A stretch of 64,000 bases of DNA from Deltaproteobacteria bacterium (lineage in GTDB: Bacteria; Desulfobacterota; Syntrophia; Syntrophales; Smithellaceae). The stretch lies in contig JANYAY010000010.1 of NCBI GenBank assembly GCA_025361065.1, positions 12,695 to 76,694 on the forward strand, given 5' to 3'. Positions 9,811 through 37,076 of this stretch are shown one piece after another. A program made the position numbers and the translations under genes. Every line of letters starts with the position of its first letter. Positions within the stretch are counted from its first letter, which is position 1. The notes beneath the pieces were generated by a model, which searched no databases, was not told the DNA's origin, and saw only the letters and a list, made by a program, of their open reading frames with translations.

Positions 9811-12564
9811 TTAAAGGTAAGTCATAATCGTCATTTTCCCAATTTGCGCAGCCAGGTTATATGACGCCTGCAAAGCTATCTGTTGCATTTGAAAAGATGT
9901 TATTAACTTTGCCAAATCTGCATCTTCAATACCGGACTTCATTGATGCTAATTGTTCGGTAAAAGCTGTATGGTTCGTACTGGTAAGATCTAAAGAACTC
10001 GCTTTGGCGCCGGCTTCTGTTTGCTTCTGCAATACTTGCGTTTGAATATTTTTTAAATCCGCGATTTGTGCGGACACTGCAGTCATATCATGAGCAGTCA
10101 AGGCCGATTTGAGCGCATTTAGTGTCTTCAGCAGATCAACACTACCCGGACCATGGACCGTAACGGCGCTGACTTGCGACGATGCACCTGCTGTAATCGT
10201 AAAAGAGGCCGTGTTATTTGCATTCCACTTGCCCGATAGATCCAACGTTACGTCATTTGTTCCGTCATTATCGGCATCAATGGTAACTGTGGTAGCGCTA
10301 GTCGAAGTAATAACCATATTCGGATATTGAGAGTTACTCGTCAGCGACCAGCTTCCGGCGGAGGCGCCGCGGGTAAGAGTAATCGTATCGTCCACTGTCA
10401 AACCGGCCCCCGCGCCAACGACGGAAGCAGCGGCAATAGGCCCATTGGCCGCAGTAAAGGCGGAAGATCCTTTGATGTTATAAACAAAATTATTGCTTTT
10501 ACCGACTTGCACGGTCAATTGATCATCGTTACCCCGGTAATAACCGGCGGAATAAGCGTTCACCGTAAACAAATCATTAGCGGTAAGATGCTGAGAACCG
10601 GAATCGTTAATCGTCATATTTATACCATCGCCCAAAGTTATAGACGTGGCTGTTGTTGAGGCAATTGTGCCGAAATCGAGTGCATTGACAGGGTTGGTGG
10701 TAGTAAGGGTCATTGCCAACTGGCTTGCTCCAGTTGTGTTATCCGTTACTTCTATTCTTCCATCTGCAGTAATCGAAGCGGTGCCTCCTAAAGTCGTCCC
10801 AATTTTGTCGAGCAATTCCTGCACCGTGCCTGTAACCGCATTGTTTATTGTATATGTCCCTGCTACGGCGGTGCCGTCATGCTTTTTCCCGGTAATGACT
10901 ATAGTGGTACCATCCTGAACATTGGCGCCGGTAATTTTGTTCCAGACTGTTGCAGCTGTAATGGCGGATCCGCCGGCCGTATTCACTTTGCTCCCCTGCA
11001 GCGCCTGAGGCGGAAGAGTTTGCTCCGTTCCCCAGGTTTTACCACCATCAATAGACATTTTATAAGTTGCCGCAGCCAATGTTCCGCCTGTAGTAATTTT
11101 TACGGCATATGTTTTGTTTTCTATTCCCGTATAAGTGCCACTGGACGCTACAGTGCCGTTAAATGTATTGGCTGTCGCCGCGAAGGCAGCGTCAATACTG
11201 GTAGCGATTGCATCCAGCGTAAATGAATCACCGGCAGCAAGATCCTTTGTACCGGCGGTAAAGGTCATTTTTATCCCGTCACCTAAAGTTGTTTGTGCAG
11301 ACAGGCCAGATTGTGTTGAACCCCAAATTATACCGCCGTCGGCGGAAATTTGATAAGTTGCCGCAGCCAATGTTCCGCCTGTAATAATTTTTAAAGCATA
11401 TGTTTTGTTTTCCATTCCCGTATAAGTGCCACTGGAGGTGACCGTGCCGTTAAAATTATTAACCGGTGTTGCGGTTGGGTTTCCAATACCGGCAGCAGTT
11501 GCATTCACGGTAAATGAATCATTGGCAGTAAGATCCTGTGTGCCGGTAGTAAAGGCCAATGTTAATCCGTCAGTACCTAAAGCACTGCTTCCGGGGTTGA
11601 GAGCAGTTGTAATGTCAGTTCCGTTCCAACTTGTACCACCATCGGTAGAATATTGATATGTTGCAACACCCAACACTCCGGTATTGGTTATCTTTACAAG
11701 ATACGTTTGGTCTGTTGTTCCCATATAAGTGCCACTAGACTGAATGGTGCCGTCAAATATATTGGTTTGTGCTGCGTTTACGTTTCCGGTAATGGCAGCG
11801 GTAGCATTTACAGTATAGGAATCATTGGCAGAAAGATTATGAGCGCCGGCGCCGGGCGTAAAGGTCATGGTAACGCCCAGTCCATCCCCAAAATCTATCG
11901 GGGCGGAAAGATCTGTTTGTGTCGCACTCCATGTTGTTCCGCCATCGGCAGACACCTGATACGTTGCGTCGGCCAAATCGGCTGCCGTTCCTCCATCAAT
12001 GATTTTTACAGCATACGTTTTGTTTACTGTCCCCGTATAAGTGCCAATGGATGTGACCGTACCGTCAAAATTATTAACCGGCGCTGCACTTACATCTCCA
12101 ATCTTACCAACGGGTGTTGCTGAGAATGGCGCGACATCAGTTTTTGATCCGCCAAACAAATAACTGTCGCCTTGTTTGGCATTCATCAGTGATAAGGCGT
12201 CATCAATCATCGCAGAGAGAATCGCGGCATTAGAATCCATTGTTTCATCAGACGCCACAGCGCTGGACTGGGAAGCCGCAATATCCTGGGCCTGGGTAAT
12301 CATTTTACCAATACTGGTAAAATTTGTGTCTGTTAAAGATAACCATGTTTGGGTGTTGGTGATATTGGTTTGATATTGCTCTATGGAGGCCATTGCCGAA
12401 GTGTAATTCAATATATTGCCGGCGCCGGTCGGATCATCCGACGGCCTGTTGATATTTTTTTGGGTAGATATCTTTTCCATCAGGTTGGCGGATTGTCCTT
12501 GAACCTTAAACAAACTATTGGTAATAGTATTAAATTTCATATTTTCCGTAACGCGGTTAATCAT
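9811..12564 (-). CDS. flgL: Hook-filament junction protein FlgL (HAP3), unusually large at 917 aa
   Basis: The N-terminus reads MINRVTENMKF..INRPSDDPTGA. The C-terminus reads DADLAKLITSFQMQQIALQASYNLAAQIGKMTIMTYL. It sits directly downstream of flgK. Confidence 0.9.
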   Translation of the reverse strand: MINRVTENMKFNTITNSLFKVQGQSANLMEKISTQKNINRPSDDPTGAGNILNYTSAMASIEQYQTNITNTQTWLSLTDTNFTSIGKMITQAQDIAASQSSAVASDETMDSNAAILSAMIDDALSLMNAKQGDSYLFGGSKTDVAPFSATPVGKIGDVSAAPVNNFDGTVTSIGTYTGTVNKTYAVKIIDGGTAADLADATYQVSADGGTTWSATQTDLSAPIDFGDGLGVTMTFTPGAGAHNLSANDSYTVNATAAITGNVNAAQTNIFDGTIQSSGTYMGTTDQTYLVKITNTGVLGVATYQYSTDGGTSWNGTDITTALNPGSSALGTDGLTLAFTTGTQDLTANDSFTVNATAAGIGNPTATPVNNFNGTVTSSGTYTGMENKTYALKIITGGTLAAATYQISADGGIIWGSTQSGLSAQTTLGDGIKMTFTAGTKDLAAGDSFTLDAIATSIDAAFAATANTFNGTVASSGTYTGIENKTYAVKITTGGTLAAATYKMSIDGGKTWGTEQTLPPQALQGSKVNTAGGSAITAATVWNKITGANVQDGTTIVITGKKHDGTAVAGTYTINNAVTGTVQELLDKIGTTLGGTASITADGRIEVTDNTTGASQLAMTLTTTNPVNALDFGTIASTTATSITLGDGINMTINDSGSQHLTANDLFTVNAYSAGYYRGNDDQLTVQVGKSNNFVYNIKGSSAFTAANGPIAAASVVGAGAGLTVDDTITLTRGASAGSWSLTSNSQYPNMVITSTSATTVTIDADNDGTNDVTLDLSGKWNANNTASFTITAGASSQVSAVTVHGPGSVDLLKTLNALKSALTAHDMTAVSAQIADLKNIQTQVLQKQTEAGAKASSLDLTSTNHTAFTEQLASMKSGIEDADLAKLITSFQMQQIALQASYNLAAQIGKMTIMTYL
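11014..12078 (-). repeat. Tandem ~97-codon repeats inside flgL, about 3.5 units
   Basis: The protein units start NNFDGTVTS.GTYTG..NKTYAVKI and each contains SxDGGxxW. At DNA level 11062-11172 and 11353-11463 are roughly 90% identical by eye, offset by 291 nt. Confidence 0.85.
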
Positions 12565-12582
12565 CGGCGAAAGCCTCCTTCC

Positions 12583-14262
12583 CTATTGCCCCAGCGCAAT
12601 TAAAGTGTCCATCATATCCGAAACAATCTTGGTCACCCGGCCGGCGGCATTATACGCCATCTGATACTTAATCAGGTTCAACATCTCTTCGTCCAGAGAA
12701 ACACCGGAAAGCATTTCTCTTTGACTGTTATTCTGAGTAGCCGTTGCCTGTTCGCGAGTCAAAACCGTGGCCGAGCTTGCAACATCCTGGCCCATTTTGG
12801 CCATAAAGGCGCTGTAATACCCACTTATACTTGTTGTATTATCTTTCTTCGTGAGGGAAAATGAAAGAGTATCGTTATTCGCCCAGGTGCCGGACAAATT
12901 TAAAGTTATATCGGCGGTCTCATTTCCGTTCAGATCGAGAGTAACACTCTTATCGTCAGCAGATAATACGCGCAGCGACGAATATCCGCCGTCCGCAAAG
13001 ACCGTCCAATCCGCGGAAGATGCACCACGCGTCAGTGTTATGGCTGCGGTTGTACTTTTATATACCTGTCCGATATTATTAATCTGGCCTGATGCAAAAG
13101 CGGTAACCGAAGATGTAGTAACCCTTTCTAAAGAGGCATACATTTTATCGTCTTTAATCGCAGTCATCGCGGTGGCATTATCACCATCAGCATTGAGAGT
13201 GGCAGAAGCGGCAATTTTTCTCGTATCGGCAACTATTGCCGCACTGACTTCCATATCCTTTGCTTCCGCAGCCGGCTTGAAAAAAACATCCCCGATATTG
13301 CCATCCTGATCGTATCCGGCCATATGTTGAGAGTTTACTTTATTTATAATACTGGAAGCCGTCTGATTTAACTCGTCAATGTAATCCGGCAGGATAACAT
13401 CCCTGATATTCAATAAACCACCCAACTCACCACCTTGAATATCTTGATTCAACGGATTGTTCACGTCGTCGGTAAAAACAATGTCATTTAAATTAGAGTT
13501 GGCAGAATTAGTCTGCACCTGCAATTGCCATTTATTATCCCCTTCCACAAGAGACTTGCCGTTGGAGGGCAGATAAATGTATAGTGACCCGTCACTTTGC
13601 TCAATATAATTAACATCAATTATTGAACTTATTTTACCCAAAAGCTCCATTCGATTGTCACTAAGCGACGTTGCCTGGCCGCCGGCACTTTCGGTTCTGA
13701 CGATTTCCGCATTTAAAGCGGCCATGTCACTCAAATATCCGTTTAATTTTTCAACATCATTGGCTATGGTTTGATCAGCGTTACTTTGGATGCTGGACAG
13801 TGCATCCGCTCTTGAATTAATAACAGCGGTCAGATTTTGCGCTGTCGAGATAACTACATTCCTCTCAGCTTCTCCTGACGGATTGGCGGAAAGATTGTCC
13901 CAGGCGCTCCAGAACCGGCTTAGCACATCATTAATACCGCCTCCATTGCTTTCATTTAAGACACCTTCAACTTGCGTCAATAAATTATTACGCGCCGTGG
14001 CACTGCCCACAGACGAATCCTGAACAACTATTTGAGAATCCAGATATTTATCAAAAATTCTCCGTATCTCAGATATTTTTACCCCAACCTGTTCCTGACT
14101 CGAATTAGGATCTTTCGTTCCCACAGATTCAAATACCGGAGTAAGTCTGGAATAGCCGGGCGTATTGACATTGGCGATATTTGAACCGGTAACATTAATT
14201 GCCGTCAAATTACTAAGAATAGCTTGTTTTGCTGTATATAAGACACTGCCAATATTAGACAT
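12583..14262 (-). CDS. flgK: Hook-associated protein FlgK (HAP1)
   Basis: The N-terminus reads LYTAKQAILSNLTAINVTGSNIANVNTPGYSR. The C-terminus reads LDEEMLNLIKYQMAYNAAGRV. Confidence 0.95.
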   Translation of the reverse strand: MSNIGSVLYTAKQAILSNLTAINVTGSNIANVNTPGYSRLTPVFESVGTKDPNSSQEQVGVKISEIRRIFDKYLDSQIVVQDSSVGSATARNNLLTQVEGVLNESNGGGINDVLSRFWSAWDNLSANPSGEAERNVVISTAQNLTAVINSRADALSSIQSNADQTIANDVEKLNGYLSDMAALNAEIVRTESAGGQATSLSDNRMELLGKISSIIDVNYIEQSDGSLYIYLPSNGKSLVEGDNKWQLQVQTNSANSNLNDIVFTDDVNNPLNQDIQGGELGGLLNIRDVILPDYIDELNQTASSIINKVNSQHMAGYDQDGNIGDVFFKPAAEAKDMEVSAAIVADTRKIAASATLNADGDNATAMTAIKDDKMYASLERVTTSSVTAFASGQINNIGQVYKSTTAAITLTRGASSADWTVFADGGYSSLRVLSADDKSVTLDLNGNETADITLNLSGTWANNDTLSFSLTKKDNTTSISGYYSAFMAKMGQDVASSATVLTREQATATQNNSQREMLSGVSLDEEMLNLIKYQMAYNAAGRVTKIVSDMMDTLIALGQ

Positions 14263-14265
14263 GAC

Positions 14266-14814
14266 TTAGCCTTCCTTATGCAAAAATGTGCCGTTATTAT
14301 CCGTTGATTTAATTTTGCCGCACTGCAGGTAAACTGATCCCGAAGACATAATTGAATTTATAAAATCCAGAGAGCTCTTGATGTTGGTCATAGAAGCCTC
14401 CAGCAAATCCTGATTTGCTGCATTTAATGCACTAATTTCTCCGGCAATTAATACCAATTCATCTCTAATTTCCTCTATTTCCTTCCTTTGTTCATGACCT
14501 GCATAACCGGCTAATTGAGAAAGTTTGAGGTCATTTGTTCTTATATCGAGACTCCGGGCAATCTTCTTTAAAATATTTGTTCTTGCTTCCGCCAGCATTC
14601 GCGCTTTCAGAATTATATTTTCCTTAAGCGCATTGGTATGGTTAAATTCGCCAAGATTTGGTTTTATTAAAATCTTTTTTTCGCCAATAATTGTACTTTT
14701 CAGCTCCTGATAAACTGCTAATTCTTTTCTTAATATCTCTATCAGCGAGGTAAAAATATATTCGCAGGAGTTCTCTTCTTGCGAGTTTGTCAAGCTTATG
14801 CTCTGCTCTAACAT
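14266..14814 (-). CDS. flgN: FlgN-like export chaperone
   Basis: 182-aa helical protein between flgM and flgK, which is the conserved flgM-flgN-flgK order. The N-terminus has the LxxELxxYxxL pattern. Confidence 0.65.
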   Translation of the reverse strand: MLEQSISLTNSQEENSCEYIFTSLIEILRKELAVYQELKSTIIGEKKILIKPNLGEFNHTNALKENIILKARMLAEARTNILKKIARSLDIRTNDLKLSQLAGYAGHEQRKEIEEIRDELVLIAGEISALNAANQDLLEASMTNIKSSLDFINSIMSSGSVYLQCGKIKSTDNNGTFLHKEG

Positions 14815-14964
14815 AGCAATATCCTTATATTAACTTAGCGGATAAATTTAACGTTGGTGTGTCCGCCCAAAGGCTGACCTGAGAAAAGATATAGGCTGGT
14901 CTTCCTGATAGGAAGAATAAAAGATGGGAAACATCTATTAATTCAGAATTATTTTGCCTCTTTT

Positions 14965-15273
14965 TTAAGCAAAAAGATCAATGATCGATTCTCCCACCAT
15001 TTTCCCGGCAATCTTTTCGGCACTAACGTTGTATGTTCCCTTTTCTACCTGACCCTTGATTTCCTGTACTTTTTGTTCACGTACGTCAGGTACCTCGGAC
15101 AACGCATTTTTTACTAGCTGACTGTCTTTTGCCTGGGTGGAAATATCAACCTTTTCTTCTGTTTTTATTGTCGCACTGGCGACCTGCTTATCAGAATTGG
15201 CTACATAGTTGTCGTTTTTCTGATAATGCTGAACCATTTGCGAACTGACATCTTTAACATCGGAAATTTTCAT
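14965..15273 (-). CDS. flgM: Anti-sigma28 factor FlgM
   Basis: The C-terminus DVREQKVQEIKGQVEKGTYNVSAEKIAGKMV is the FlgM signature. The ATG at 15273 lies 9 nt after AAGGAG. The ORF-track start at 15330 would include the promoter. Confidence 0.85.
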   Translation of the reverse strand: MKISDVKDVSSQMVQHYQKNDNYVANSDKQVASATIKTEEKVDISTQAKDSQLVKNALSEVPDVREQKVQEIKGQVEKGTYNVSAEKIAGKMVGESIIDLFA

Positions 15274-15307
15274 ATAATGCTCTCCTTGAAACTTTATCTT
15301 ACTCCAC

Positions 15308-15335
15308 CTATCGGCAAAATCAACAAACAACTTAA
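15308..15335 (-). promoter_or_regulatory. sigma28 promoter of flgM
   Basis: Minus sense reads TAAG-N15-GCCGATAG, about 35 nt upstream of the flgM ATG. Confidence 0.65.
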
Positions 15336-15338
15336 ATC

Positions 15339-15680
15339 TTATTTAATTTTCTCTTGGGGGACCTCCTTTGAATAATTTTTGGTTAATTGTTCAAAAAGCA
15401 TTTTTTGCAAACCAAAGCCATTACCCTTATTAGACAATTCTTCGGCAACCCTTTGATCCATAAGCATATAATATGTATCTTTCCCGGATAAGCTCACAGC
15501 GCTGGAACCTTTCGGAACAGTTTCGCGCATTGTTTTCAAAAGATAATAAGTAAAAATTGATTCAAAATCTTTACATGCTTTCTTAATTTTTTGCAGATCA
15601 TCTTTCTTTTGTTTCGGCGTACTTTCGGTATTTTTTGCTTGTTCTATTATATTTTGCGTACTTAAATCTATTGTGCTCAT
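15339..15680 (-). CDS. flgJ: Rod-binding protein corresponding to the FlgJ N-terminal domain only, with no muramidase
   Basis: ACKDFESIFTYYLLKTMRET...GFGLQKMLFEQL matches the rod-binding domain pattern. 113 aa. Confidence 0.8.
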   Translation of the reverse strand: MSTIDLSTQNIIEQAKNTESTPKQKKDDLQKIKKACKDFESIFTYYLLKTMRETVPKGSSAVSLSGKDTYYMLMDQRVAEELSNKGNGFGLQKMLFEQLTKNYSKEVPQEKIK

Positions 15681-15698
15681 GGCAGTCCCTCAATACAT

Positions 15699-16877
15699 CT
15701 AAATAATTTGTAAATCTGCCTGCAAGGCGCCGGCAGCTTTTATTGCCTGCAATATGGTGATCAAATCACGCGGGGAAACACCCAGCGAATTAAGAGCTCT
15801 GACCACATCATAAATTGTCACTCCCTGGGGAACCATCAGTAAGAACTTTTTCTCTTCGGCAACATTTACTGTAGTTTGGGGAATTACAACAGTCTGCCCG
15901 CCGGGAGCAACAATTGTACCTCCCGGACCCGGAGCAGGAGGCGCACCGCCGGCCGGCGGCGCCGGCGCAAAAGGCAAAGGCTGCGATACCTTGGCATCTT
16001 CTTTAATCTGAATACTTAGATTTCCATGGGCAATAGCCACAGTTGATATGCGTACATTATCGCCCATAACGACCGTACCGGTTTTTTCGTTTAACATGAC
16101 AACGGCTACCGCATCGACAGGAACGTCCAGAGATTCAATAAAATAAACAAGTTCCGACAGTGAACCCTCAAATGATTCTCTCGCCTTGACGGAAACCGAA
16201 AAGGAATCTATTTGTTTTGCTTCTACAAAAGATATGGTCTTATTGATGGTTGCGGCCATTCTGGAGGCAGTTGTAAAATCCGGGTGCTGCAAATTAATCA
16301 TCAATGCACGCCGTTGATCAAAATCATTTTTGAGTTCTTTCTCTACAAAGGCTCCGTTAGCAATACCACCCGCCGTGGTATGATTTTTTGATACACCGCC
16401 ACCGGCGCCCCCGGCGGAAAATCCACCCAAAGTTACCGCGCCTTGTGCTACAGCGTATACCGCACCGTCAACACCGCGAAGAGGTGTAATAAGAAGCGTA
16501 CCACCTAAAAGACTTTTTGCAGATCCCAAAGAGGAAACACTCACATCAATCTTCGTTCCAATTTTGGCAAATTGGGGCAGCGAAGCCGTGACTATGACAG
16601 AGGCTACGTTATCCGCTTTCAGTGTCGCCGCCGTGCCTTTCATGGAAAGGCCCTGCCTGCTCATCATGTTGATCAGTGATTCAGTGGTAAAAAGATTCTT
16701 GGTCAAGTCATCTCCGGTCCCGGCCAGACCAACGACAATTCCATAGCCGATAAGTTGATTAGCCCGGACACCACCGACAGCGGCGATGTCTTTAATTCTG
16801 GCGGCATATACAGTGCTGGTCAACATCAGCATTACGACAAACACGGCTAAATAGACTGTAATTTTCGTTATTTTCAT
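15699..16877 (-). CDS. flgI: P-ring protein FlgI
   Basis: ARIKDIAAVGGVRANQLIGYGIVVGLAGTGD and a C-terminus of LQAIKAAGALQADLQII. Confidence 0.97.
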   Translation of the reverse strand: MKITKITVYLAVFVVMLMLTSTVYAARIKDIAAVGGVRANQLIGYGIVVGLAGTGDDLTKNLFTTESLINMMSRQGLSMKGTAATLKADNVASVIVTASLPQFAKIGTKIDVSVSSLGSAKSLLGGTLLITPLRGVDGAVYAVAQGAVTLGGFSAGGAGGGVSKNHTTAGGIANGAFVEKELKNDFDQRRALMINLQHPDFTTASRMAATINKTISFVEAKQIDSFSVSVKARESFEGSLSELVYFIESLDVPVDAVAVVMLNEKTGTVVMGDNVRISTVAIAHGNLSIQIKEDAKVSQPLPFAPAPPAGGAPPAPGPGGTIVAPGGQTVVIPQTTVNVAEEKKFLLMVPQGVTIYDVVRALNSLGVSPRDLITILQAIKAAGALQADLQII

Positions 16878-16900
16878 CTTTCTGCTCCCGCAATTTTACT

Positions 16901-16961: not shown

Positions 16962-17128
16962 CTTGCCACCCTTTAGTGGTGGTTTACTATAATTTAAAAA
17001 TCAGGTTTTTTGGAACAACGGCCAAATCCTGTAGTTAGAAATGCTCCTCTTTAACCCCGCTTTGCGGGATAAGTGCGTTAACGAAATCATTTTCTGCCGG
17101 GAAAAAGCAGAAAATAATTTCTAACTTA

Positions 17129-30532: not shown

Positions 30533-30625
30533 ACATTACCTATCGCATTGTGACCTTCAGATTATGGACAGACAAAGTTATTTTGCCCGACGGCTTAATG
30601 ACGTGAGCGTCAATTTTCCGCTGCT

Positions 30626-31405
30626 TCACATTAAACGCAAAAGCATTACGATTTTAGCCTCATAATTAATGAAAAAACCTGACGTCAATTTGACAAACAT
30701 CGGCGCAGTTAAACCCAGAAAAATAAGTCCGATTGCTATTTGCAGAGGCATGCCGACGATAAAGATATTGATCTGCGGCACTGTACGGGCAACGATTCCC
30801 AGACCAACATTGGTAAAGAGCATTACTGCCATAAGAGGAGCCGCCAGTTTAACTGCAATAACAAACATTTCTTTCGAATAACTGAAAATAGCCTGTATTA
30901 GTGGACCCGAAAAATGAAAGGCCAGGGGATTTAAAATAGAATAACTTTGAATAATTGCTGAAAAGAAAATGTGATGAGCATTAACTGCCAGGAACACGAG
31001 CAAGGCAATCAGATATTGCAGCTCAGTAATGATGGATACCTGCTCACTGGTCATGGGATCGATAATATTGGCAATGGATAATCCCATTTGAAAACCAACC
31101 ATATCACCGGCCATCTGAATACCTGCCAGGAGCAGTCTGGCAACATAACCGATAATCAGGCCGATTATAACTTCACCAGCCATCCGGTACATTAAAATCA
31201 GCACATGATAATTTGCTGTTTGCGGAATTTTCGGCAGGACAACGGGGAATATGATTAAAGTTATCAGGACGGATAAAGCGGCTTTAAATCGCGCCGGAAC
31301 AGCTGTATCACTGATTACCGGAATGGTAACGACAATGGCACTTACTCTTAATAAGACTAGAATGAAAGCTTCTAAGTGTTCGGCGGATAAGAAAGGCAAG
31401 CTCAT
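30626..31405 (-). CDS. fliR: Export apparatus protein FliR
   Basis: 259-aa polytopic protein between fliQ and flhB. Confidence 0.93.
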   Translation of the reverse strand: MSLPFLSAEHLEAFILVLLRVSAIVVTIPVISDTAVPARFKAALSVLITLIIFPVVLPKIPQTANYHVLILMYRMAGEVIIGLIIGYVARLLLAGIQMAGDMVGFQMGLSIANIIDPMTSEQVSIITELQYLIALLVFLAVNAHHIFFSAIIQSYSILNPLAFHFSGPLIQAIFSYSKEMFVIAVKLAAPLMAVMLFTNVGLGIVARTVPQINIFIVGMPLQIAIGLIFLGLTAPMFVKLTSGFFINYEAKIVMLLRLM

Positions 31406-31460
31406 ATTTCGTTACTCTCTTTTCCTTTCTTTCCATGTGATTTATTTCCACCGGATATTT

Positions 31461-31730
31461 TCACTTGATATATGCCGGTATATTGGCGAATATATTTTGC
31501 GTAAAGGTTATCATTAAACTCATCATCCAGGGGAGCGCTGCCACCAAGGCAACCATAACCGCCACAATCTTCGGTACAAACACCAGTGTCATTTCCTGAA
31601 TTTGCGTAACAGCCTGAAACAAGCTGATCAAAACACCTACAACCAAACCCACTATCAGCATCGGGGCAGATACTAAAAGTGTTATCTTGATAGTTTCCGC
31701 CATTAATCCCACAACCATATCTGTAGTCAT
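31461..31730 (-). CDS. fliQ: Export apparatus protein FliQ
   Basis: MTTDMVVGLMAETIKITLLVSAPML..FQAVTQIQEMTLVFVPKI, 89 aa from the ATG at 31730. The ORF-track start at 31760 runs into repeat copy D. Confidence 0.93.
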   Translation of the reverse strand: MTTDMVVGLMAETIKITLLVSAPMLIVGLVVGVLISLFQAVTQIQEMTLVFVPKIVAVMVALVAALPWMMSLMITFTQNIFANIPAYIK

Positions 31731-31750
31731 TTTGTTATCTTCTTTCAGTT

Positions 31751-31807
31751 TAGGAACCACTACGAAATAATCTGTTTTTTCTATTTCGCTGCGGCACCTT
31801 ACGCCGT
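31751..31807 (-). repeat. Intergenic hairpin element, copy D (fliP|fliQ spacer)
   Basis: Minus sense reads ACGGCGTAAGGTGCCGCAGCGAAAT-agaaaaaacagatt-ATTTCGTAGTGGTTCCTA. It is the most divergent copy but keeps the stem through a C:G swap and G.U pairs. Confidence 0.75.
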
Positions 31808-31832
31808 TGGCTATATTTTTTTGACCAACGGC

Positions 31833-32606
31833 CTAATGGAAACTTTGGACTAATGAACCGACGATTAAATACCAGCCGTCAACAAGCACAAATAACAGCA
31901 ATTTAAAGGGTAAACTGACCATAATTGGCGGGAGCATCATCATACCCATGGACAACAAAACAGATGCCACGACCATATCCAAAACCAGAAAAGGCAGATA
32001 AATCATAAAGCCGATTTGAAAGGCAGTCTTCAATTCGCTAATCGCAAAAGCCGGAATTAACGTTGTTAAAGAAATATCTTCCGGTTTTGCGGGTCTCTTC
32101 TCGTTCGCTATTTTAACAAAAAGAGCCAGGTCTTTCTCTCTTACCTGTTTGAGCATAAAGGCTTTTACCGGAGCTGCGGCTTTTGCAAAAGCCTGTTCAC
32201 CGGAAATCTGTTCTTCATAATAAGGTTTTAGAGCTTCATCGTTCACCCGGTTAAAAACCGGCGCCATAATGAAAAAAGTCAGGAATAAAGACAATCCGAT
32301 GATGACTTGATTGGGAGGCATTGTTTGCGTTCCCAAAGCATGCCGCAGCAGGGATAAAACGATTACAATCCTGGTAAAAGAAGTGACCATCAAAAGAATG
32401 GCCGGAGCCAAAGAAAGAATAGTCAATAATATTACCAGCTGAATGAGCGAGGAGACTTTTTCCGGTTCGGTTGTTCCACCGGACATACTCAAACTGATAT
32501 TGGGTAAAGAAAGGGACTGGGCAGCGTAGACATAAGGGGAAGTTATTATCGCTACAACTATAAAGAGCAATGAAAATAAAATTATCAGCACTTTCTCTCT
32601 TTTCAT
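31833..32606 (-). CDS. fliP: Export apparatus protein FliP
   Basis: LLTILSLAPAILLMVTSFTRIVIVLSLLRHALG and GFMIYLPFLVLDMVVASVLLSMGMMMLPP. Confidence 0.97.
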   Translation of the reverse strand: MKREKVLIILFSLLFIVVAIITSPYVYAAQSLSLPNISLSMSGGTTEPEKVSSLIQLVILLTILSLAPAILLMVTSFTRIVIVLSLLRHALGTQTMPPNQVIIGLSLFLTFFIMAPVFNRVNDEALKPYYEEQISGEQAFAKAAAPVKAFMLKQVREKDLALFVKIANEKRPAKPEDISLTTLIPAFAISELKTAFQIGFMIYLPFLVLDMVVASVLLSMGMMMLPPIMVSLPFKLLLFVLVDGWYLIVGSLVQSFH

Positions 32607-33004
32607 TTTTCAGTCTTATCCTTCTTTTTATTGGGAGAAAGACTGAGTAGAGACATGTATTGTGCCAGTTTACTTCCCGAAAAATCCACTATTTTGGAAT
32701 TAGGTTTGCTGATTCTTATTTTTGCTATAGCCAGAGGATCGTCAATTGCGGCCAGTGTCGTCATTTGCTGATTGGAAATACCGACCACAAGAATCTTATC
32801 TATTACTTCGACCACAATAATTCTGCTTTTCGGCCCCAGATATCTGGTTGAAATTACATTAATCAGAGGTTGATTATTATCAGAAACAGGACCCGTCTGC
32901 TGCATAAACCTCTTGACGAAATACATGACGCCAATAAGTAATCCCAGCACAATAGCCAGGGCAAAAATCATTTTCAAGAATGAAGAAACAAGAGAAATTT
33001 CCAT
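32603..33004 (-). CDS. fliO: FliO-like protein
   Basis: 133 aa with a single N-terminal TM segment, between fliN and fliP, with an ATGA overlap onto fliP. Confidence 0.75.
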   Translation of the reverse strand: MEISLVSSFLKMIFALAIVLGLLIGVMYFVKRFMQQTGPVSDNNQPLINVISTRYLGPKSRIIVVEVIDKILVVGISNQQMTTLAAIDDPLAIAKIRISKPNSKIVDFSGSKLAQYMSLLSLSPNKKKDKTEK

Positions 33005-33016
33005 TGGTAATCACAC

Positions 33017-33475
33017 TCAGACTAATTTATTTACTCTCTCTGCCGGAGAAACTATATCCGTTAAACGCACGCCGAATTTTTCATTGACGACGACCACTTC
33101 ACCGCGGGCAATCAACCTTTGATTAACATAGATGTCCATGGGCTCGCCGGCAAGCTTAGTTAGTTCCAGCACGGAACCTTGCCCCAGTTGCAGCAATTCG
33201 CTGATCAGCATTTTGCTTCTACCCAACTCACATGTTAAGGTAAGTGGTATATCTAGAATGAAATCCAGGTCAAAGGTCGTTTTATTATCCGGCTTCTTCT
33301 TTTTGAGCTCATCGAAATGAACATTAGTAACTTCTGTTCTTGCTTGCGGTGCTGTTTTGGACTGCTCCATTTCATCCTTAACATCATCCCAGCTTATTTT
33401 GTCCTCTTCCACCGCCGCGGTTTCTGAGGATGCCCCTCCGCCCTTCATTAATTCATCAATTTCATTTTGTTCCAT
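33017..33475 (-). CDS. fliN: C-ring protein FliN
   Basis: The C-terminus reads LGRSKMLISELLQLGQGSVLELTKLAGEPMDIYVNQRLIARGEVVVVNEKFGVRLTDI. Confidence 0.95.
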   Translation of the reverse strand: MEQNEIDELMKGGGASSETAAVEEDKISWDDVKDEMEQSKTAPQARTEVTNVHFDELKKKKPDNKTTFDLDFILDIPLTLTCELGRSKMLISELLQLGQGSVLELTKLAGEPMDIYVNQRLIARGEVVVVNEKFGVRLTDIVSPAERVNKLV

Positions 33476-33476
33476 A

Positions 33477-34463
33477 TCAGCCTTCCTCTTTTCCCGTTAC
33501 TATACTTGAAATTTGTACAGCCTGATTTCCCTTATAATTACCGGTATATCCCTTAAATTTCTTAATCCCTTCCACATAGATGTCCAGCGGATCCGAAGCA
33601 TAATGCTCCAGTTGAATAACATCGCCTTTTTTAAGATTCACAATATCTTTACCTAAAACCTGCGCCCTGCCAAGTTCTACAAAAATATCTACGTAAGACT
33701 GAAGAAGGCCGGATTTGAATCTGTTTGCCCAAGCCTTATCCACTTCCATATGTTCACTCTGGAAACCGGCGGACAGTTTTTCTTTAACAGGCTCGAGCAT
33801 GGAATAGGGAATACAAATGGATACAACCCCCGACGTATACTCAACTTCAATTTCAAAATTCATCACAACGACAACATCAGTGGGTGGGACGATTTGGGCA
33901 AATTGTGGGTTAATCTCCGCTCGTTGATATGCTATTTTCAAATCAATTAATGGTTTCCAGCATTTTTCCAGGTCGGCAAGTGCACTCAAAACTACTTTTT
34001 TGATCAAATTATTTTCTATCGCTGTAAATTCACGGCCCTCAATTTTAAAAGCCGCTGTTCCCGTACCACCGAAAATTATGTCCACCAGAGTGAAAATTAT
34101 TTTTGATTCCACAATAAAAATAGCATTGCCGCGCATGGGATCCATACGAAACAAATGAAGGCTTGTCGGCACAGGCAATGTTTTCAAAAATTCACCGAAC
34201 TTAATCATATCTGCAGAAACAGCGGTTACTGCAATAACTTTGCGCAGCATAGAAGAAAGAGTAGCGCGAAACATGCGGGCAAATTTCTCGTTGGTCATTT
34301 CCAGAGTAGGCATACGGCCACGAATAATCCTGTCCTGACTGGTCAAGTCATAGGAAATTATCGCACCCGGTTCATGGTACTCTTCTACCTGGGTCTCTAT
34401 TTCGCCGCCGGAAATTCCTCGCAACAGGGCATCAACTTCTTCTTGCGAAAGGATATTGGTCAT
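33477..34463 (-). CDS. fliM: C-ring protein FliM
   Basis: The N-terminus LSQEEVDALL is the CheY-P binding motif. 328 aa. Confidence 0.96.
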   Translation of the reverse strand: MTNILSQEEVDALLRGISGGEIETQVEEYHEPGAIISYDLTSQDRIIRGRMPTLEMTNEKFARMFRATLSSMLRKVIAVTAVSADMIKFGEFLKTLPVPTSLHLFRMDPMRGNAIFIVESKIIFTLVDIIFGGTGTAAFKIEGREFTAIENNLIKKVVLSALADLEKCWKPLIDLKIAYQRAEINPQFAQIVPPTDVVVVMNFEIEVEYTSGVVSICIPYSMLEPVKEKLSAGFQSEHMEVDKAWANRFKSGLLQSYVDIFVELGRAQVLGKDIVNLKKGDVIQLEHYASDPLDIYVEGIKKFKGYTGNYKGNQAVQISSIVTGKEEG

Positions 34464-34499
34464 GGAACCTCACTTAAGGATTATATTCTACTTTTTCTT

Positions 34500-35018
34500 T
34501 TACTGAATGACAAACTCGGTGAAATATACTTTCAATATTTTTCCTTTTGTTAAATAACCATTTGCCCGTAGGACAATCTCATCCCGGAGACGCTGCTTTC
34601 CGATGGGGTCCATCATCTCTTTGTATGTTTTGGCGGACAGCAAATCGAGAATGTTATCCCGGAGCTTCGGCTTAAGCAGATTTAATTCTTCCAGCGCCGG
34701 TTGGTCGGATAATTCCAGCTGCATAACTACTTTTAGATATCTTTCCCCCTCATTATCAATAAGATTGACAATAAAAGGATCCATCGGCCAAAAAATTGCC
34801 ATCGGAGGTTTAGCTGCTTCCGCCTGTTTCTTTTCTTGAGCAGGCGAATGAGACTTAAACAAGAAAAAATAAGCGCCGGCGCCGGCGCCACCCAGAACAA
34901 ATACGGCTATCACGGCAATAATGATCCATTTTAAGGCAGAGCCTTTTTTCTTTTCCGGAACTTGCTCTTCGCCTTCTTCTTCGTCTTTTTTAACTGCGTC
35001 TGCCATTATTCTCTCCAT
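34500..35018 (-). CDS. fliL: Basal-body-associated protein FliL
   Basis: One TM segment, then PFIVNL..RYLKVVMQLELSD...KILKVYFTEFVIQ. The start may instead be the ATG at 35006. Confidence 0.9.
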   Translation of the reverse strand: MERIMADAVKKDEEEGEEQVPEKKKGSALKWIIIAVIAVFVLGGAGAGAYFFLFKSHSPAQEKKQAEAAKPPMAIFWPMDPFIVNLIDNEGERYLKVVMQLELSDQPALEELNLLKPKLRDNILDLLSAKTYKEMMDPIGKQRLRDEIVLRANGYLTKGKILKVYFTEFVIQ

Positions 35019-35051
35019 AATCGGAAATATTGCTCTATTGATCTGCTATCT

Positions 35052-35067
35052 AGCAAAGAGCATACCA
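35052..35067 (-). promoter_or_regulatory. sigma54 promoter upstream of fliL
   Basis: Minus sense reads TGGTAT-gctct-TTGCT. Confidence 0.75.
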
Positions 35068-35206
35068 AAGACCGGACACTTTTTTAGCAATTATTTTATA
35101 GATATTACGTATATTTACAGTTAAATGGATCGGAGTACCGATATTTTCATCCGTGCGGACTCTTTTTATTGACGAAAAGTCAAATAATTGACGGGAAGGG
35201 AGGACA

Positions 35207-35370
35207 GACTGAAGGCTGAGGGCTGAAGGTCAAGATGAAGGCGCTAACTGCGCCCTCCTTATAACCTAACAGTCTTCAGCCTTCAGCCTGAATACCTGTT
35301 GCAAAAAAGGCTGAAGCTAAAGGAGGGAGGGGGGAGAGGAAAATCGTCCTTTAGTCTTCAGCCTATAAAC
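35207..35370. repeat. Cluster of GGCTGAAG/CTTCAGCC repeats with nested inverted repeats
   Basis: GACTGAAGGCTGAGGGCTGAAGG lies at 35207-35229. AGTCTTCAGCCTTCAGCCTGAA lies at 35271-35292. CCCTCCTT (35253) and AAGGAGGG (35321) bracket CTTCAGCC and GGCTGAAG. TCTTCAGCCTATAA starts at 35355. Confidence 0.8.
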
Positions 35371-35543
35371 TAAATAATTGCAGGTAAACTAATAAATATT
35401 TGAGATCCGGAGCAGATCGGATTTGCACAACCTGCCCCGATCTCTGGATCCCGGATAGCTTCGCCCATATGGTCTTCGCTTCCGGGATCAATTCCACTAA
35501 CGCTTCAAACTGCGCTCACTTGTTTTCAGCGAGTGTCATTGAA

Positions 35544-37076
35544 TTATCTCTTGAGATTCATTAATTCCTGCATAATTGTGTCCTCAGTTGTAATGACTCG
35601 GGCGCTGGCTTGATAAGCTTTTTGCGCCGTAATCATTTTAATGAATTCTGTCGCTATATCGGTATTGGACATTTCCAGTGTATTGGGTGTCAATGTACCC
35701 ATCCCGGATTGCCCCGGATAATTTTGAATAGCTGAACCGGAGGCAACTGTCTCACCAAACAGGTTACTACCCATTTTTTTCAGGCCCCACGGGTTGGAAA
35801 ACTGAGCCAACATCAGCTCAGCGAGGTCGGATGTCTGACCGTTAGTAAAGAACCCGCTGATCCTTCCGCTGGAAGCAATCGAAAGAGTCTTTAAGTTGCC
35901 GGAAGCAAAACCGTCGGCGGTCAGCGCCCGGATAACTGATGAGGTGGAATATTGCGTAATACTTAAAGCACCGTCTCCCATCAAATTCCAGTTAACATTA
36001 CCACCTGCGCCAATTGTTGCTCCGCCGGCCAGCGCTGTGGAAAAATTAGTTGTAATATCATTAAGAGCTAACGGCGTATGGGTCAGAGTGAACGTCGCCG
36101 TGTCGCCGGGTGCCCAAACAAGAGCCGGTGTTAAAGTCAGATCATTGGTACCCGTTCCGTCAAGGCTGACAGTTACGTCACCGGCAATACCACTGGAAGT
36201 AATTGTAGCGTTATCATATCCACCATCCGCGGTAATCGTCCAACTGGCCGCTCCACGGGTTAATGTCATTGTTCCTGTTTGATAAACCATGCCCAATTTG
36301 TTCAATGCCAAGGTCGCGGTGCCGGTGCCGGCAGTAACTTCCGTAACGGCGCTCGCAGTTCCCGTATATATCCCGGTGCAAATACCATCTGTATCAAAAG
36401 TAAACCCGTTGGCGGAGATGGAAGTCGCCGGAGTCGAATCCAGAGAAGTCTCCACAGCCCAATAGCCGGTTGTCGGATGTTCCGTCTTAGTAAACGTCGT
36501 ATTCAAGGTATGTTTTGCGCCAAGTGAATCATAAACTGTCTGGGTAGTGTTGTACTGGCCGCCGGTGGCAGTTCCGGAATCTATATTTGCACCTACGGAA
36601 AAAGTAGTAGATACTTCGGGCGTAGATTGCACGTCGGACAGATTAATATCAGATAGCGCACCGGCAGGTTCTCCGTTAACAACTGTTTTCCCCTGTACTT
36701 TATTACCGTCGGTATCCACAAGCAAACCGGCGGCATTCAAGCGGAAGGCCCCGGCTCGCGTATAAAATGTGGCACCCGAGTCATCATTCACCATGAAAAA
36801 ACCATCACCATCGATGGCGACATCCGTGGAATTGCCCGTCGTTTCAAAGGAGCCTGCGCTAAACTGCGTTTGGACTTCCGATACGGAAACACCACGGCCG
36901 ACTTGCATAGTACCGGAAGAGCCACCGGATATACTCTGGCTTAAAACGTCGGCAAAATAAGTAGTGCCGGATTTAAAACCAATTGTGTTGACGTTAGCCA
37001 GATTGTTCGCAATAACATCCAGTTCCTTGGAACTGGCATTTAATCCGGATATCCCTGCCCATAGTGCACTGCCCAT
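35544..37076 (-). CDS. flgE: Hook protein FlgE
   Basis: The N-terminus reads MGSALWAGISGLNASSKELDVIANNLANVNTIGFK. The C-terminus reads LEMSNTDIATEFIKMITAQKAYQASARVITT. Confidence 0.96.
   Translation of the reverse strand: MGSALWAGISGLNASSKELDVIANNLANVNTIGFKSGTTYFADVLSQSISGGSSGTMQVGRGVSVSEVQTQFSAGSFETTGNSTDVAIDGDGFFMVNDDSGATFYTRAGAFRLNAAGLLVDTDGNKVQGKTVVNGEPAGALSDINLSDVQSTPEVSTTFSVGANIDSGTATGGQYNTTQTVYDSLGAKHTLNTTFTKTEHPTTGYWAVETSLDSTPATSISANGFTFDTDGICTGIYTGTASAVTEVTAGTGTATLALNKLGMVYQTGTMTLTRGAASWTITADGGYDNATITSSGIAGDVTVSLDGTGTNDLTLTPALVWAPGDTATFTLTHTPLALNDITTNFSTALAGGATIGAGGNVNWNLMGDGALSITQYSTSSVIRALTADGFASGNLKTLSIASSGRISGFFTNGQTSDLAELMLAQFSNPWGLKKMGSNLFGETVASGSAIQNYPGQSGMGTLTPNTLEMSNTDIATEFIKMITAQKAYQASARVITTEDTIMQELMNLKR

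What the first reader, a model, noticed from the sequence alone, without database searches (positions are those of the whole stretch)
10192..36272. One ~64-aa module shared by the variable regions of the hook (FlgE), HAP1 (FlgK) and HAP3 (FlgL)
Three different axial proteins carry an obviously homologous insert between their conserved terminal helices:
- FlgL (10192-10383): TITLTRGASAGSWSLTSNSQYPNMVITSTSATTVTIDADNDGTNDVTLDLSGKWNANNTASFTIT
- FlgK (12850-13044): AITLTRGASSADWTVFADGGYSSLRVLSADDKSVTLDLNGNETADITLNLSGTWANNDTLSFSLT
- FlgE (36081-36272): TMTLTRGAAS--WTITADGGYDNATITSSGIAGDVTVSLDGTGTNDLTLTPALVWAPGDTATFTLT

The outer domains of axial proteins normally diverge independently of one another. 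A common surface module on the hook and both junction proteins suggests either domain shuffling among paralogs or a shared partner. Candidate partners are a sheath, a glycosylation machine or a common outer lattice. The flagellin in this window does not have the module.
Basis: seen in the sequence. Interest (0 to 1): 0.7.

Follow-up and report, generated by a model that had tools for sequence, protein, structure and literature searches.

The report
Mobile outer domain on hook and junction
Smithella-like syntrophic bacteria carry a previously undescribed ~90-residue beta domain on the flagellar hook protein and both hook-filament junction proteins; it has been copied, moved and lost among these three genes, and the two junction versions always appear or disappear together.

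Summary
FlgL (917 aa), FlgK (559 aa) and FlgE (510 aa), all on the minus strand, share one homologous segment (BLASTP E 7e-10 to 2e-13, 38-47% identity). The true unit is about 90 aa, not 64.

- **Fold.** AlphaFold2 models it as a compact seven-strand beta domain (pLDDT 95.7). It has no Pfam family, no significant Foldseek neighbour (PDB and BFVD only) and no PDB sequence relative.
- **Rarity.** Only 53 of 1.84 billion representative proteins match it. The strong full-length matches are FlgE, FlgK, FlgL or fragments of them, from Smithella/Smithellaceae.
- **Cassette behaviour.** FlgE carries 0-3 confident copies, FlgK 0-2 and FlgL 0-1, and protein length changes by about 100 aa per copy.
- **Subtypes and movement.** E, K and L subtypes separate cleanly. 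In all 15 two-copy FlgKs the extra copy is L-type. In 3 of 4 such genomes FlgL has lost its own copy.
- **Coupling.** K-type and L-type copies co-occur in 12 of 12 genomes and are absent together in 7 of 7 close relatives. The FlgE copy varies independently.

Domain shuffling among the paralogs is supported. A shared sheath or glycosylation partner is untested. I propose an outer collar at the junction, but this is inferred. This is a new variant of a known kind, of moderate interest.

The parts
35544..37076 (-). flgE, hook protein (510 aa), host of the E-type module
   Evidence: Pfam Flg_bb_rod, FlgE/F/G D1, FlgE_D2 (aa 162-390, split by an insert) and Flg_bbr_C. NCBIfam TIGR03506 at 301 bits. 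The gene sits next to flgD at 37102-37764.
36063..36326 (-). E-type module (FlgE aa 251-338), inserted inside domain D2
   Evidence: hhalign places the module profile at aa 251-338 with probability 99.8%. AF2 pLDDT is 83-96 over aa 230-336. The natural variant P0104 (403 aa) lacks exactly this block. No solved FlgE aligns across it.
12583..14262 (-). flgK, hook-associated protein 1 (559 aa), host of the K-type module
   Evidence: Pfam FlgK_D1 at aa 95-328 plus the rod N- and C-terminal motifs. TIGR02492 at 306.9 bits.
12829..13101 (-). K-type module (FlgK aa 388-478); it is the only outer domain of this FlgK
   Evidence: Profile envelope at aa 388-478. The module-only AF2 model has pLDDT 95.7 and pTM 0.86. 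Natural variants P0245 and P0289 (462-463 aa) lack this block cleanly.
9811..12564 (-). flgL, hook-associated protein 3 (917 aa), host of the L-type module
   Evidence: TIGR02550 at 190.9 bits against a cut-off of 127.2. Pfam Flagellin_N and Flagellin_C. The gene lies immediately downstream of flgK.
10171..10440 (-). L-type module (FlgL aa 709-798)
   Evidence: Profile envelope at aa 709-798, 98 bits. It groups with the FlgL modules of relatives.
10465..12102 (-). Block of four Asp-box-containing units of about 100 aa in FlgL (aa 155-700). This is a second, unrelated outer-domain family. The fourth unit is split by an insert of about 110 aa.
   Evidence: The repeat profile hits aa 155-258, 259-360, 360-457 and 458-580. 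The same unit occurs once in FlgL of about 403 aa in many relatives. Pfam reports a BNR/Asp-box at aa 203-213.

Best explanation
The shared segment is a lineage-specific accessory domain of about 90 aa. It is all-beta and, by inference, surface-exposed. It behaves as a cassette within the outer-domain insertion sites of three paralogous axial-protein genes in one flagellar cluster.

**Shown computationally.**
- It is a discrete unit inserted inside D2 of FlgE. In FlgK it follows the D1 region, where it is the only outer domain. In FlgL it follows the resident Asp-box domain.
- It is confined to Smithella/Smithellaceae-type Syntrophales.
- It has diverged into E, K and L subtypes. There is no ongoing gene conversion.
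- It is still being duplicated, moved between genes and deleted.
- K-type and L-type copies are gained and lost as a pair. This holds whether the L-type copy sits in FlgL or as an extra copy in FlgK. The FlgE copy varies independently.
- It evolves faster than the protein cores.

**Inferred.**
- The outer domains of FlgE, FlgK and FlgL are the exposed ones. FlgK's outer domain touches both the hook's outer domains and the FlgL ring.
- I therefore propose that the K-type and L-type modules contact each other and form an extra outer collar on the hook-filament junction.
- The E-type copies would add a separate D3-like outer layer of 1-3 domains on the hook.
- The likely role is mechanical: extra inter-subunit contacts that stiffen or stabilise these parts.
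- The conserved [D/S]-L-D-G-x-G-x-x-D loop may bind calcium.
For: **Homology and unit size.** BLASTP E-values are 7e-10 to 2e-13. The profile unit is about 90 aa.

**Cassette boundaries.**
- P0104 (FlgE, 403 aa) and P0245/P0289 (FlgK, 462-463 aa) lack exactly the module.
- FlgE lengths step through about 510, 610 and 710 aa for 1, 2 and 3 copies.
- FlgK lengths are about 462, 559 and 665 aa for 0, 1 and 2 copies.
- FlgL lengths are about 403 and 503 aa for 0 and 1 copy.

**Fold.**
- The module-only AF2 model has pLDDT 95.7 and pTM 0.86, with seven strands and one short helix.
- The same strand pattern appears in the independent full-length FlgE model, at pLDDT 83-96.

**Not a known domain.**
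- No Pfam hit at E<=1.
- 53 hits among 1.84e9 representatives.
- No PDB sequence hit.
- Best Foldseek E is 1.5 against the PDB and 1.2 against BFVD.
- hhalign probability against other lineages' FlgK and FlgL, and against the rest of FlgE, is <=0.7%. The positive control scored 99.8%.

**Lineage restriction.** Of 80 named-genome loci, only L001-L005 and L026 carry it. All six are Smithella, Syntrophaceae UBA or Smithellaceae.

**Subtypes and relocation.**
- Profiles trained on single-copy proteins classify 104/104 E, 110/111 K and 15/15 L copies correctly. This check was not cross-validated.
- All 15 two-copy FlgKs are L-type followed by K-type, with margins of 7-43 bits.
- Nine extra FlgE copies are L-type and seven are K-type.

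**Copy-then-loss.** L084 is K2,L1. L083, L085 and L086 are K2,L0.

**Coupling of K and L.**
- Both types are present in 12 genomes.
- Both are absent in 7 close relatives.
- No discordant genome was found.
- The core-only FlgK tree places the K0,L0 genomes L082 and L007 inside module-bearing clades with 100% bootstrap. This implies at least two independent co-losses.

**Independence of FlgE.** One contig is E1,K0,L0 (JACQWR010000006.1). One assembly is E0,K1,L1 (CAYULE01).

**No recent conversion.**
- blastn finds nothing between the three window copies.
- Within-genome E/K identity is 0.357 against 0.339 between genomes.

**Faster evolution.** Mean pairwise identity is 43% in the module against 66% in the rest of FlgE. 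In FlgK it is 55% against 61%.

**Geometry from the literature.**
- The D2 domains of FlgK and FlgL are exposed (PMC12221982).
- FlgK D2 contacts the hook's outer domains and reaches the FlgL ring (PMC5691160).

**Calcium-loop hint.** The weak non-flagellar hits are FG-GAP repeat proteins. They match profile positions 25-73.
Against: - No experiment or assembly model exists. The collar and stiffening roles are inference from Salmonella and Campylobacter geometry.
- I could not read model coordinates, so outward orientation was not measured.
- Genomes that lack the module in the hook or in the junction are presumably motile. The domain is therefore accessory, and its contribution may be small or not mechanical at all.
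- Fast evolution and variable copy number fit antigenic or phage-evasion variation, or adhesion, equally well.
- The K/L co-occurrence rests on about 19 genomes, mostly metagenome-assembled. Some FlgE-to-FlgK pairings rely only on matching contig length or on a shared assembly prefix.
- The direction of the first acquisition is unresolved. Basal nodes of both trees have weak support.
- A weak Foldseek match to Salmonella FlgK (9go6_C, TM 0.47, probability 0.16) leaves open a very remote link to ordinary FlgK outer domains.
Confidence: 0.6

Rival explanations
1. One continuous homotypic outer lattice, or a sheath-like layer, runs from the hook through FlgK to FlgL. It would require the same module on all three proteins.
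For: The window and at least two other genomes have the module on all three proteins. The outer domains of the three proteins are adjacent in the assembled flagellum (PMC5691160; PMC12221982).
Against: Genomes exist with E1,K0,L0, with E0,K1,L1 and with K2,L0. The flagellin lacks the module. FlgE copy number varies from 0 to at least 3 independently of FlgK and FlgL. No sheath-related gene was recognised in the window.
Confidence: 0.1
2. The module is a display platform for an external interaction rather than a mechanical element. Candidate roles are a shared O-glycosylation target, adhesion to syntrophic partner cells, or a variable surface that evades phages or grazers.
For: - The module is 19% Thr, 6% Ser, acidic and poor in Lys and Arg.
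- It evolves faster than the cores and varies in copy number.
- A glycosyltransferase/methyltransferase/TPR protein of 1168 aa lies near the flagellin gene in the window. Sugar-nucleotide genes and a GT2/TPR gene flank the flagellar genes in L083 and L084.
- In another syntroph, the flagellar cap and filament proteins adhere specifically to methanogen partners (PMC4429618).
Against: - The flagellin and FliD, the usual glycosylation and adhesion surfaces, lack the module.
- The hook and junction are a tiny part of the flagellar surface and lie close to the cell.
- This idea gives no reason for the strict K-type/L-type co-occurrence.
- No glycosylation sequon or lectin-like fold was found.
Confidence: 0.2
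3. The module is an ancient outer domain inherited from the common ancestor of the axial proteins and lost elsewhere. It would not be a lineage-specific cassette spread by duplication.
For: FlgE, FlgK and FlgL are ancient paralogs. There is a weak Foldseek resemblance to Salmonella FlgK (TM 0.47).
Against: - Module identity between the paralogs is 38-47%. The universally conserved cores of FlgK and FlgE are much more diverged: 28% over 72 aa at E=0.001.
- The module is absent from 74 of 80 loci across Desulfobacterota and other phyla.
- Profile-profile comparison with their outer regions gives probability <=0.7%.
- Only 53 representative clusters worldwide match.
Confidence: 0.04
4. The similarity is a compositional artefact of Thr/Ala/Gly-rich beta-strand sequence.
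For: The composition is biased: T 19%, A 13.5%, G 11%. Weak multi-stretch hits to unrelated beta-rich repeat proteins occur at the tail of the representative search.
Against: - E-values of 1e-10 to 1e-13 were obtained with composition-based statistics.
- Near-invariant Trp, Tyr, Asp, Trp and Asp-Thr positions hold across 198 copies.
- Indel boundaries are clean.
- Two independent AF2 predictions give the same confident fold.
Confidence: 0.01

Closest known systems
Extra outer hook domains D3/D4 of Campylobacter and Helicobacter FlgE (Pfam PF21464 flgE_D3), and the co-diverged FlgK D2 of Campylobacter (PMC5691160)
   Same: These are lineage-specific beta domains inserted in FlgE D2 that add an outer layer to the hook. 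FlgK's outer domain has to fit the hook's outer domains and reach the FlgL ring. This supports the idea that hook and junction outer domains change in a coordinated way.
   Different: In Campylobacter the FlgE and FlgK outer domains have different folds and are not homologous to each other. Here one sequence family is present in FlgE, FlgK and FlgL. PF21464 does not match any of the three window proteins. No solved FlgE aligns over the module.
FlgK D3 of Burkholderia pseudomallei and Caulobacter, and the bulky D2 of Campylobacter FlgL
   Same: These are additional outer domains on junction proteins. In Burkholderia FlgK, D3 has the same fold as D2, which points to internal duplication (PMC5691160). 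Campylobacter FlgL has a bulky D2 (PMC12221982).
   Different: Those duplications stay within one protein. Here copies move between different axial genes, and the K-type and L-type copies are gained and lost together. The best Foldseek match to Salmonella FlgK is not significant.
Hypervariable outer domains (D2/D3) of flagellins
   Same: Both are surface-exposed, fast-evolving insertions between conserved terminal helices that differ between lineages. This comparison rests on general knowledge.
   Different: The flagellin of this window and those of relatives do not carry the module. The module occurs only on the hook and the junction.
Flagellin_IN motif (Pfam PF07196), a short repeat reported in several axial and cap proteins
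   Same: It is a precedent for one sequence element occurring in more than one flagellar axial protein. This is recalled from memory and was not verified here.
   Different: PF07196 gave no hit at E<=1 in FlgE, FlgK or FlgL. It gave no hit at E<=0.01 in the flagellin or in the FliD of relatives. The module is a complete globular domain, not a short motif.
FG-GAP repeat calcium-binding loop (Pfam PF01839 / PF13517)
   Same: The module's conserved [D/S]-L-D-G-x-G-x-x-D-[ILV]-T-L hairpin resembles the D-x-D/N-G-D-G-x-x-D loop. FG-GAP proteins are the only non-flagellar proteins recovered, and only weakly.
   Different: The similarity covers only about 45 of 90 profile positions. No FG-GAP Pfam hit occurs in the three proteins. 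The predicted fold is a small seven-strand domain, not a propeller blade.

Membership tests
Flagellar hook protein FlgE | N-terminal rod motif, D1, D2 and the C-terminal FlgEFG motif; the gene lies next to flgD and fliK | tested here: met
   Pfam PF00460, PF22692, PF07559 and PF06429. TIGR03506 scores 301 bits against a cut-off of 70. FlgD is at 37102-37764. The species-level FlgE equivalog models score below their cut-offs, as expected for a divergent lineage.
Hook-associated protein 1, FlgK | FlgK helical D1 domain plus the rod-type N and C termini | tested here: met
   PF22638 at E=1.1e-56. TIGR02492 scores 306.9 bits against a cut-off of 170.75.
Hook-associated protein 3, FlgL | Flagellin-like N and C helices, a match to the FlgL equivalog model, and a gene directly downstream of flgK | tested here: met
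   TIGR02550 scores 190.9 bits against a cut-off of 127.2. PF00669 and PF00700 match. The gene ends 18 bases before flgK begins.
Known FlgE outer domain D3 (Pfam PF21464) | Sequence match of the insert to the flgE_D3 profile | tested here: not met
   No hit at E<=1 in the window FlgE. Solved FlgE chains align only to aa <=265 and aa >=355.
Widespread FlgK or FlgL outer domains of other bacteria | Detectable sequence or profile similarity between the module and the outer regions of FlgK (>=520 aa) or FlgL (>=380 aa) from other lineages | tested here: not met
   hhalign probability is 0.3% for FlgK and 0.1% for FlgL, against 99.8% for the positive control. No further Pfam FlgK domain was reported. 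The Foldseek match to Salmonella FlgK 9go6_C has TM 0.47, probability 0.16 and E 3.7.
Flagellin_IN motif (PF07196) | Match to the Pfam profile | tested here: not met
   No hit in FlgE, FlgK or FlgL at E<=1.
FG-GAP / VCBS calcium-binding repeats | Match to PF01839 or PF13517; tandem blades forming a beta-propeller; a D-x-D-G-D-G-x-x-D loop | tested here: inconclusive
   The loop motif is present: D 49%/S 41%, L 85%, D 81%, G 85%, x, G 79%, x, x, D 97%. FG-GAP proteins are weak reciprocal hits. There is no Pfam FG-GAP hit and the fold is a single small domain. Calcium binding cannot be tested here.
New module family (proposed): E, K and L subtypes | A unit of about 90 aa with the motif TLTRG...W...GGY...V.I[DS]LDGxGxxD.TL...W..[GN]DT..F.LT, located in an outer-domain insertion site of an axial protein | tested here: met
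   All three window copies score 98-106 bits against the iterated profile. The conserved columns hold over 198 copies.

The most novel reading that the evidence does not exclude
The K-type and L-type modules are an obligate heterotypic pair. Together they would build a two-tier outer collar around the hook-filament junction. What matters would be that both tiers exist, not which gene encodes them. This would explain why the L-type copy can move from FlgL into FlgK and then be lost from FlgL, and why both types vanish together. That would make the module a natural, genetically portable building block for decorating a helical axial assembly. It would also be a new small beta fold specific to flagella, possibly stabilised by calcium.
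Probability: 0.3. Interest if true: 0.65.

Novelty: new variant of a known kind. Interest (0 to 1): 0.5.

Why it matters
Accessory outer domains on the hook and junction are known from Campylobacter, Helicobacter, Caulobacter and Burkholderia. In those cases each protein carries its own unrelated domain. It is not known how the neighbouring parts of the axial structure stay compatible when one of them changes.

Here a single domain family is shared by the hook and both junction proteins. It has been caught in intermediate evolutionary states: copied, relocated and lost. Two subtypes are strictly coupled. This gives a natural experiment on how a multi-part helical machine acquires and coordinates new surface layers. 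It also points to a specific contact, K-module to L-module, that can be tested.

The module adds a confident predicted fold with no neighbour in the PDB or BFVD. In addition, it flags unusual flagella in Smithella-type syntrophs, organisms for which flagellar surface proteins have been linked to partner recognition in another syntroph.

The limits are clear. The function is inferred, the organisms are uncultured, and the phenomenon is confined to one family.

Tried and rejected
1. **Word-indexed search with the 3-sequence module alignment.** It returned nothing, although the host proteins are in that database. This is a limit of the tool, not a biological result. The exhaustive representative search replaced it.
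2. **Foldseek with the whole FlgE model.** It returned only FlgE and FlgG D0-D2 matches, which say nothing about the module. I therefore modelled the module alone.
3. **Pilin hits.** PDB sequence searches gave only marginal type IV pilin hits (E 0.009 with the 3-sequence profile, fading to 0.36 with 48 sequences). I treat them as chance.
4. **Recent gene conversion or concerted evolution.** Rejected. There is no DNA similarity between the three copies. The within-genome excess of identity is only 0.018.
5. **Origin by duplication of part of FlgE D1/D2.** hhalign probability is 0.7%.
6. **Homology to Caulobacter FlgE D3.** This was suggested by an end-to-end but sub-threshold NCBIfam alignment. 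Neither the PDB sequence searches nor Foldseek support it. I could not confirm that a Caulobacter FlgE chain is in the library.
7. **Naming the source organism.** The exact-sequence look-ups gave no name and no contig. The lineage is inferred from named homologs and loci.
9. **Polarity of the first acquisition.** FlgE-first is suggested by its wider distribution and by one E1,K0,L0 genome. The existence of E0,K1,L1 and the weak basal support leave the question open.

Full report

The window (64 kb, 42% G+C) holds a large flagellar cluster on the minus strand. It includes the flagellin gene, flgL, flgK, flgN-like, flgI/H/A/G/F, fliM/L, flgE, flgD, fliK, fliI, fliF and cheA.

The three quoted peptides are encoded exactly as written, on the minus strand. 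They lie at FlgL aa 727-791, FlgK aa 407-471 and FlgE aa 269-332. The FlgL range is one codon short. Host identities pass curated cut-offs.

Pairwise BLASTP with composition correction gives E=4.8e-12 (L/K), 6.8e-10 (L/E) and 2.3e-13 (K/E). The universally conserved FlgK and FlgE termini reach only E=0.001.

A profile built from the three segments finds only these three copies in all six frames. The flagellin has none.

The real unit is about 90 aa: FlgL 709-798, FlgK 388-478 and FlgE 251-338.

**2. What is the unit?**

No Pfam model covers it. In FlgE it splits the FlgE_D2 match.

- AlphaFold2 on a 90-sequence FlgE alignment gives pLDDT 83-96 across aa 230-336.
- A module-only model, with the FlgK copy as target and 48 diverse copies as alignment, reaches pLDDT 95.7 and pTM 0.86. 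It has seven strands and one short helix.
- The strand order is the same in both models.
- Foldseek finds nothing significant in the PDB (best E 1.5) or BFVD (best E 1.2). The only flagellar entry is Salmonella FlgK at TM 0.47 and probability 0.16.
- PDB sequence searches with module profiles give only marginal pilin hits that fade as the profile deepens.
- Solved FlgE chains align only outside aa 265-355.
- hhalign of the module against the outer regions of FlgK and FlgL from other lineages, and against the rest of FlgE, gives probability <=0.7%. The positive control scores 99.8%.

Across 198 copies the conserved core reads TLTRG...W...GGY...V.I[D/S]LDGxGxxD[ILV]TL...W..[G/N]DT..F.LT. The composition is 19% Thr, acidic and poor in Lys and Arg.

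The D-x-D-G-x-G-x-x-D hairpin resembles the FG-GAP calcium loop. FG-GAP proteins are the only non-flagellar proteins recovered, weakly and only over half the profile.

**3. Distribution.**

An exhaustive HMMER search of 1.84 billion representative proteins returns 53 hits at E<=1e-3. The strong full-length hits are FlgE, FlgK or FlgL, or fragments of them. Named homologs are Smithella, Smithellaceae, Syntrophaceae or Syntrophales MAGs.

Among 80 FlgK loci from named genomes spanning many phyla, only six carry the module, and they carry it in both FlgK and the adjacent FlgL. All six are Smithella, Syntrophaceae UBA or Smithellaceae. Other Syntrophales and Desulfobacterota have FlgK of about 460 aa and FlgL of about 300-410 aa without it.

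**4. A cassette with variable copy number.**

| Protein | Copies | Approximate length (aa) |
|---|---|---|
| FlgE | 0, 1, 2, 3 | 403, 510, 610, 710 |
| FlgK | 0, 1, 2 | 462, 559, 665 |
| FlgL | 0, 1 | 403, 503 |

A few distant giant FlgEs of about 1100 aa give weaker matches to up to 5 stretches. Natural module-less variants lack exactly the block.

The module evolves faster than the rest of its host. Mean pairwise identity is 43% against 66% in FlgE, and 55% against 61% in FlgK.

**5. Shuffling among the paralogs.**

Orthologous copies are more alike than the three copies within one genome. Profiles trained only on single-copy proteins separate E, K and L subtypes almost perfectly. That check was not cross-validated.

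When these profiles are applied to multi-copy proteins:
- All 15 two-copy FlgKs are L-type followed by K-type, with margins of 7-43 bits.
- Among the extra FlgE copies, nine are L-type and seven are K-type.

The neighbourhoods of four two-copy FlgKs show FlgL without a module in three (L083, L085, L086). One (L084) still has it. That fits a copy-then-loss route for moving the L-type module from flgL into flgK.

There is no sign of ongoing gene conversion. The three window copies share no DNA similarity. Within-genome E/K identity exceeds between-genome identity by only 0.018 (p about 0.008).

**6. Which copies go together?**

| State (E, K, L) | Genomes |
|---|---|
| 1,1,1 | window; L002 with P0014 and L003 with P0027 (paired by equal contig length) |
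| ?,1,1 | L001 (see E0 row), L004, L005, L026, L129 |
| 1,2,1 | L084 with P0012 |
| ?,2,0 | L083, L085, L086 |
| 1,0,0 | contig JACQWR010000006.1 (L006 and L081 on the same record) |
| 0,1,1 | assembly CAYULE01 (P0104 on contig 53, L001 on contig 18) |
| ?,0,0 | L007, L008, L082, L091, L093, L095 |

A K-type copy is never seen without an L-type copy, or the reverse. Both are present in 12 genomes and both are absent in 7 close relatives.

A core-only FlgK tree (454 columns, 100 bootstraps) places the K0,L0 genomes L082 and L007 inside module-bearing clades with 100% support. L082 is sister to the window. At least two independent co-losses therefore occurred. The FlgE copy is gained and lost independently.

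**7. Mechanism.**

The steps in sections 1-6 are shown computationally. The following is inferred.

- In Salmonella the D2 domains of FlgK and FlgL, together with the hook's outer domain, face the medium (PMC12221982).
- FlgK's outer domain contacts the hook's outer domains and reaches the FlgL ring, so a change in one part constrains the others (PMC5691160).

I therefore propose three things.
- The K-type and L-type modules contact each other and form a two-tier collar on the junction, whichever gene encodes the L-type tier.
- The E-type copies form a separate D3-like outer layer on the hook.
- The most likely effect is mechanical stabilisation, possibly calcium-dependent.

Alternatives that fit the fast evolution and the Thr-rich surface are glycan display, partner adhesion or surface variation. 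A syntroph's FliD and FliC bind methanogens (PMC4429618). However, the flagellin and FliD lack the module here.

A single continuous lattice or sheath that needs all three proteins is contradicted by the mixed states.

**8. A second example.**

FlgL also carries a different Asp-box-containing domain of about 100 aa.
- It occurs once in most relatives and is amplified to four copies in the window FlgL.
- In another Syntrophales genome (L010, OY764159.1) this FlgL-type domain also sits in FlgK, at the same insertion site. It is 46% identical to that genome's own FlgL, at E=4e-19.

Outer-domain exchange between adjacent axial genes is therefore recurrent in this order, with two unrelated domains.

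**9. Comparison and verdict.**

The closest known cases are the lineage-specific outer domains of Campylobacter, Helicobacter and Caulobacter FlgE, and of Burkholderia and Campylobacter FlgK and FlgL. Those are not shared between proteins.

Two full-text searches found no report of one domain family shared by FlgE, FlgK and FlgL.

I rate this a new variant of a known kind: real, well delimited and evolutionarily informative. Its function is unproven and it is confined to one bacterial family.

Noticed in passing
window 10465-12102 (-), FlgL aa 155-700: FlgL holds four tandem copies of a second, unrelated Asp-box-containing domain of about 100 aa (S-x-D-G-G-x-x-W). Most relatives have one copy, so this 917-aa FlgL is an amplified form. 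P0132 (924 aa) is similar.
   Followed up: yes
L010 9986-11674 (+), FlgK aa 342-436; Syntrophales bacterium OY764159.1: In a different Syntrophales lineage, FlgK carries the FlgL-type Asp-box domain at the same site where Smithellaceae FlgK carries the module. It is 46% identical to that genome's own FlgL, at E=4e-19. This is a second, independent case of outer-domain exchange between FlgK and FlgL.
   Followed up: partly
window 10645-10974 (-), FlgL aa 531-640: An insert of about 110 aa splits the fourth Asp-box unit of FlgL. Its sequence (…TVQELLDKIGTTLGGTASITADGRIEVTDNTTG…) looks like a flagellin/FliD 'IN'-type motif, but no Pfam model matched it.
   Followed up: no
window 152-3658 (+): An ORF of 1168 aa combines a methyltransferase-like N terminus, two GT2 glycosyltransferase regions and TPR repeats. 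It lies near the flagellin gene (5795-7165, -) and is a candidate flagellar glycosylation enzyme. Similar GT2/TPR and dTDP-sugar genes flank the flagellar genes in L083 and L084.
   Followed up: no
window 55717-57921 (-), CheA aa 288-341: The CheA histidine kinase matches an MshE-related cyclic-di-GMP-binding motif (NF053729, E=1.5e-12, 47 bits against a cut-off of 38). This suggests c-di-GMP input directly into the chemotaxis kinase.
   Followed up: no
L083 15488-18493 (-); also L086 and L085 (cut off at the locus end): The filament cap protein FliD is very large in these relatives (1001 aa). About 350 aa lie between the FliD_N and FliD_C matches, and more beyond them. This region contains neither the module nor the Asp-box unit.
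   Followed up: no
proteins P0145 (1114 aa) and P0154 (1124 aa) from the representative search: These giant FlgE proteins have about 800 aa inserted in D2. They give several weaker matches to the module profile (E 9e-11 and 2e-7, 5 stretches each). Related domains may therefore be multiplied in the hooks of other lineages.
   Followed up: no
window 5795-7165 (-): The flagellin (456 aa, TTG start as listed) is divergent. Flagellin_N scores only 33 bits and Flagellin_C 19 bits, below cut-off. Its best NCBIfam matches are long flagellins of 750-890 aa over the C-terminal half only.
   Followed up: no
window 49296-52001 (-): An ORF of 901 aa has YbgF/BamD-like TPR regions and a 'sunset' domain (NF051437, 42.7 bits against a cut-off of 27). 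It lies between the sigma-54 regulator genes and the chemotaxis genes. Its role in the cluster is unknown.
   Followed up: no
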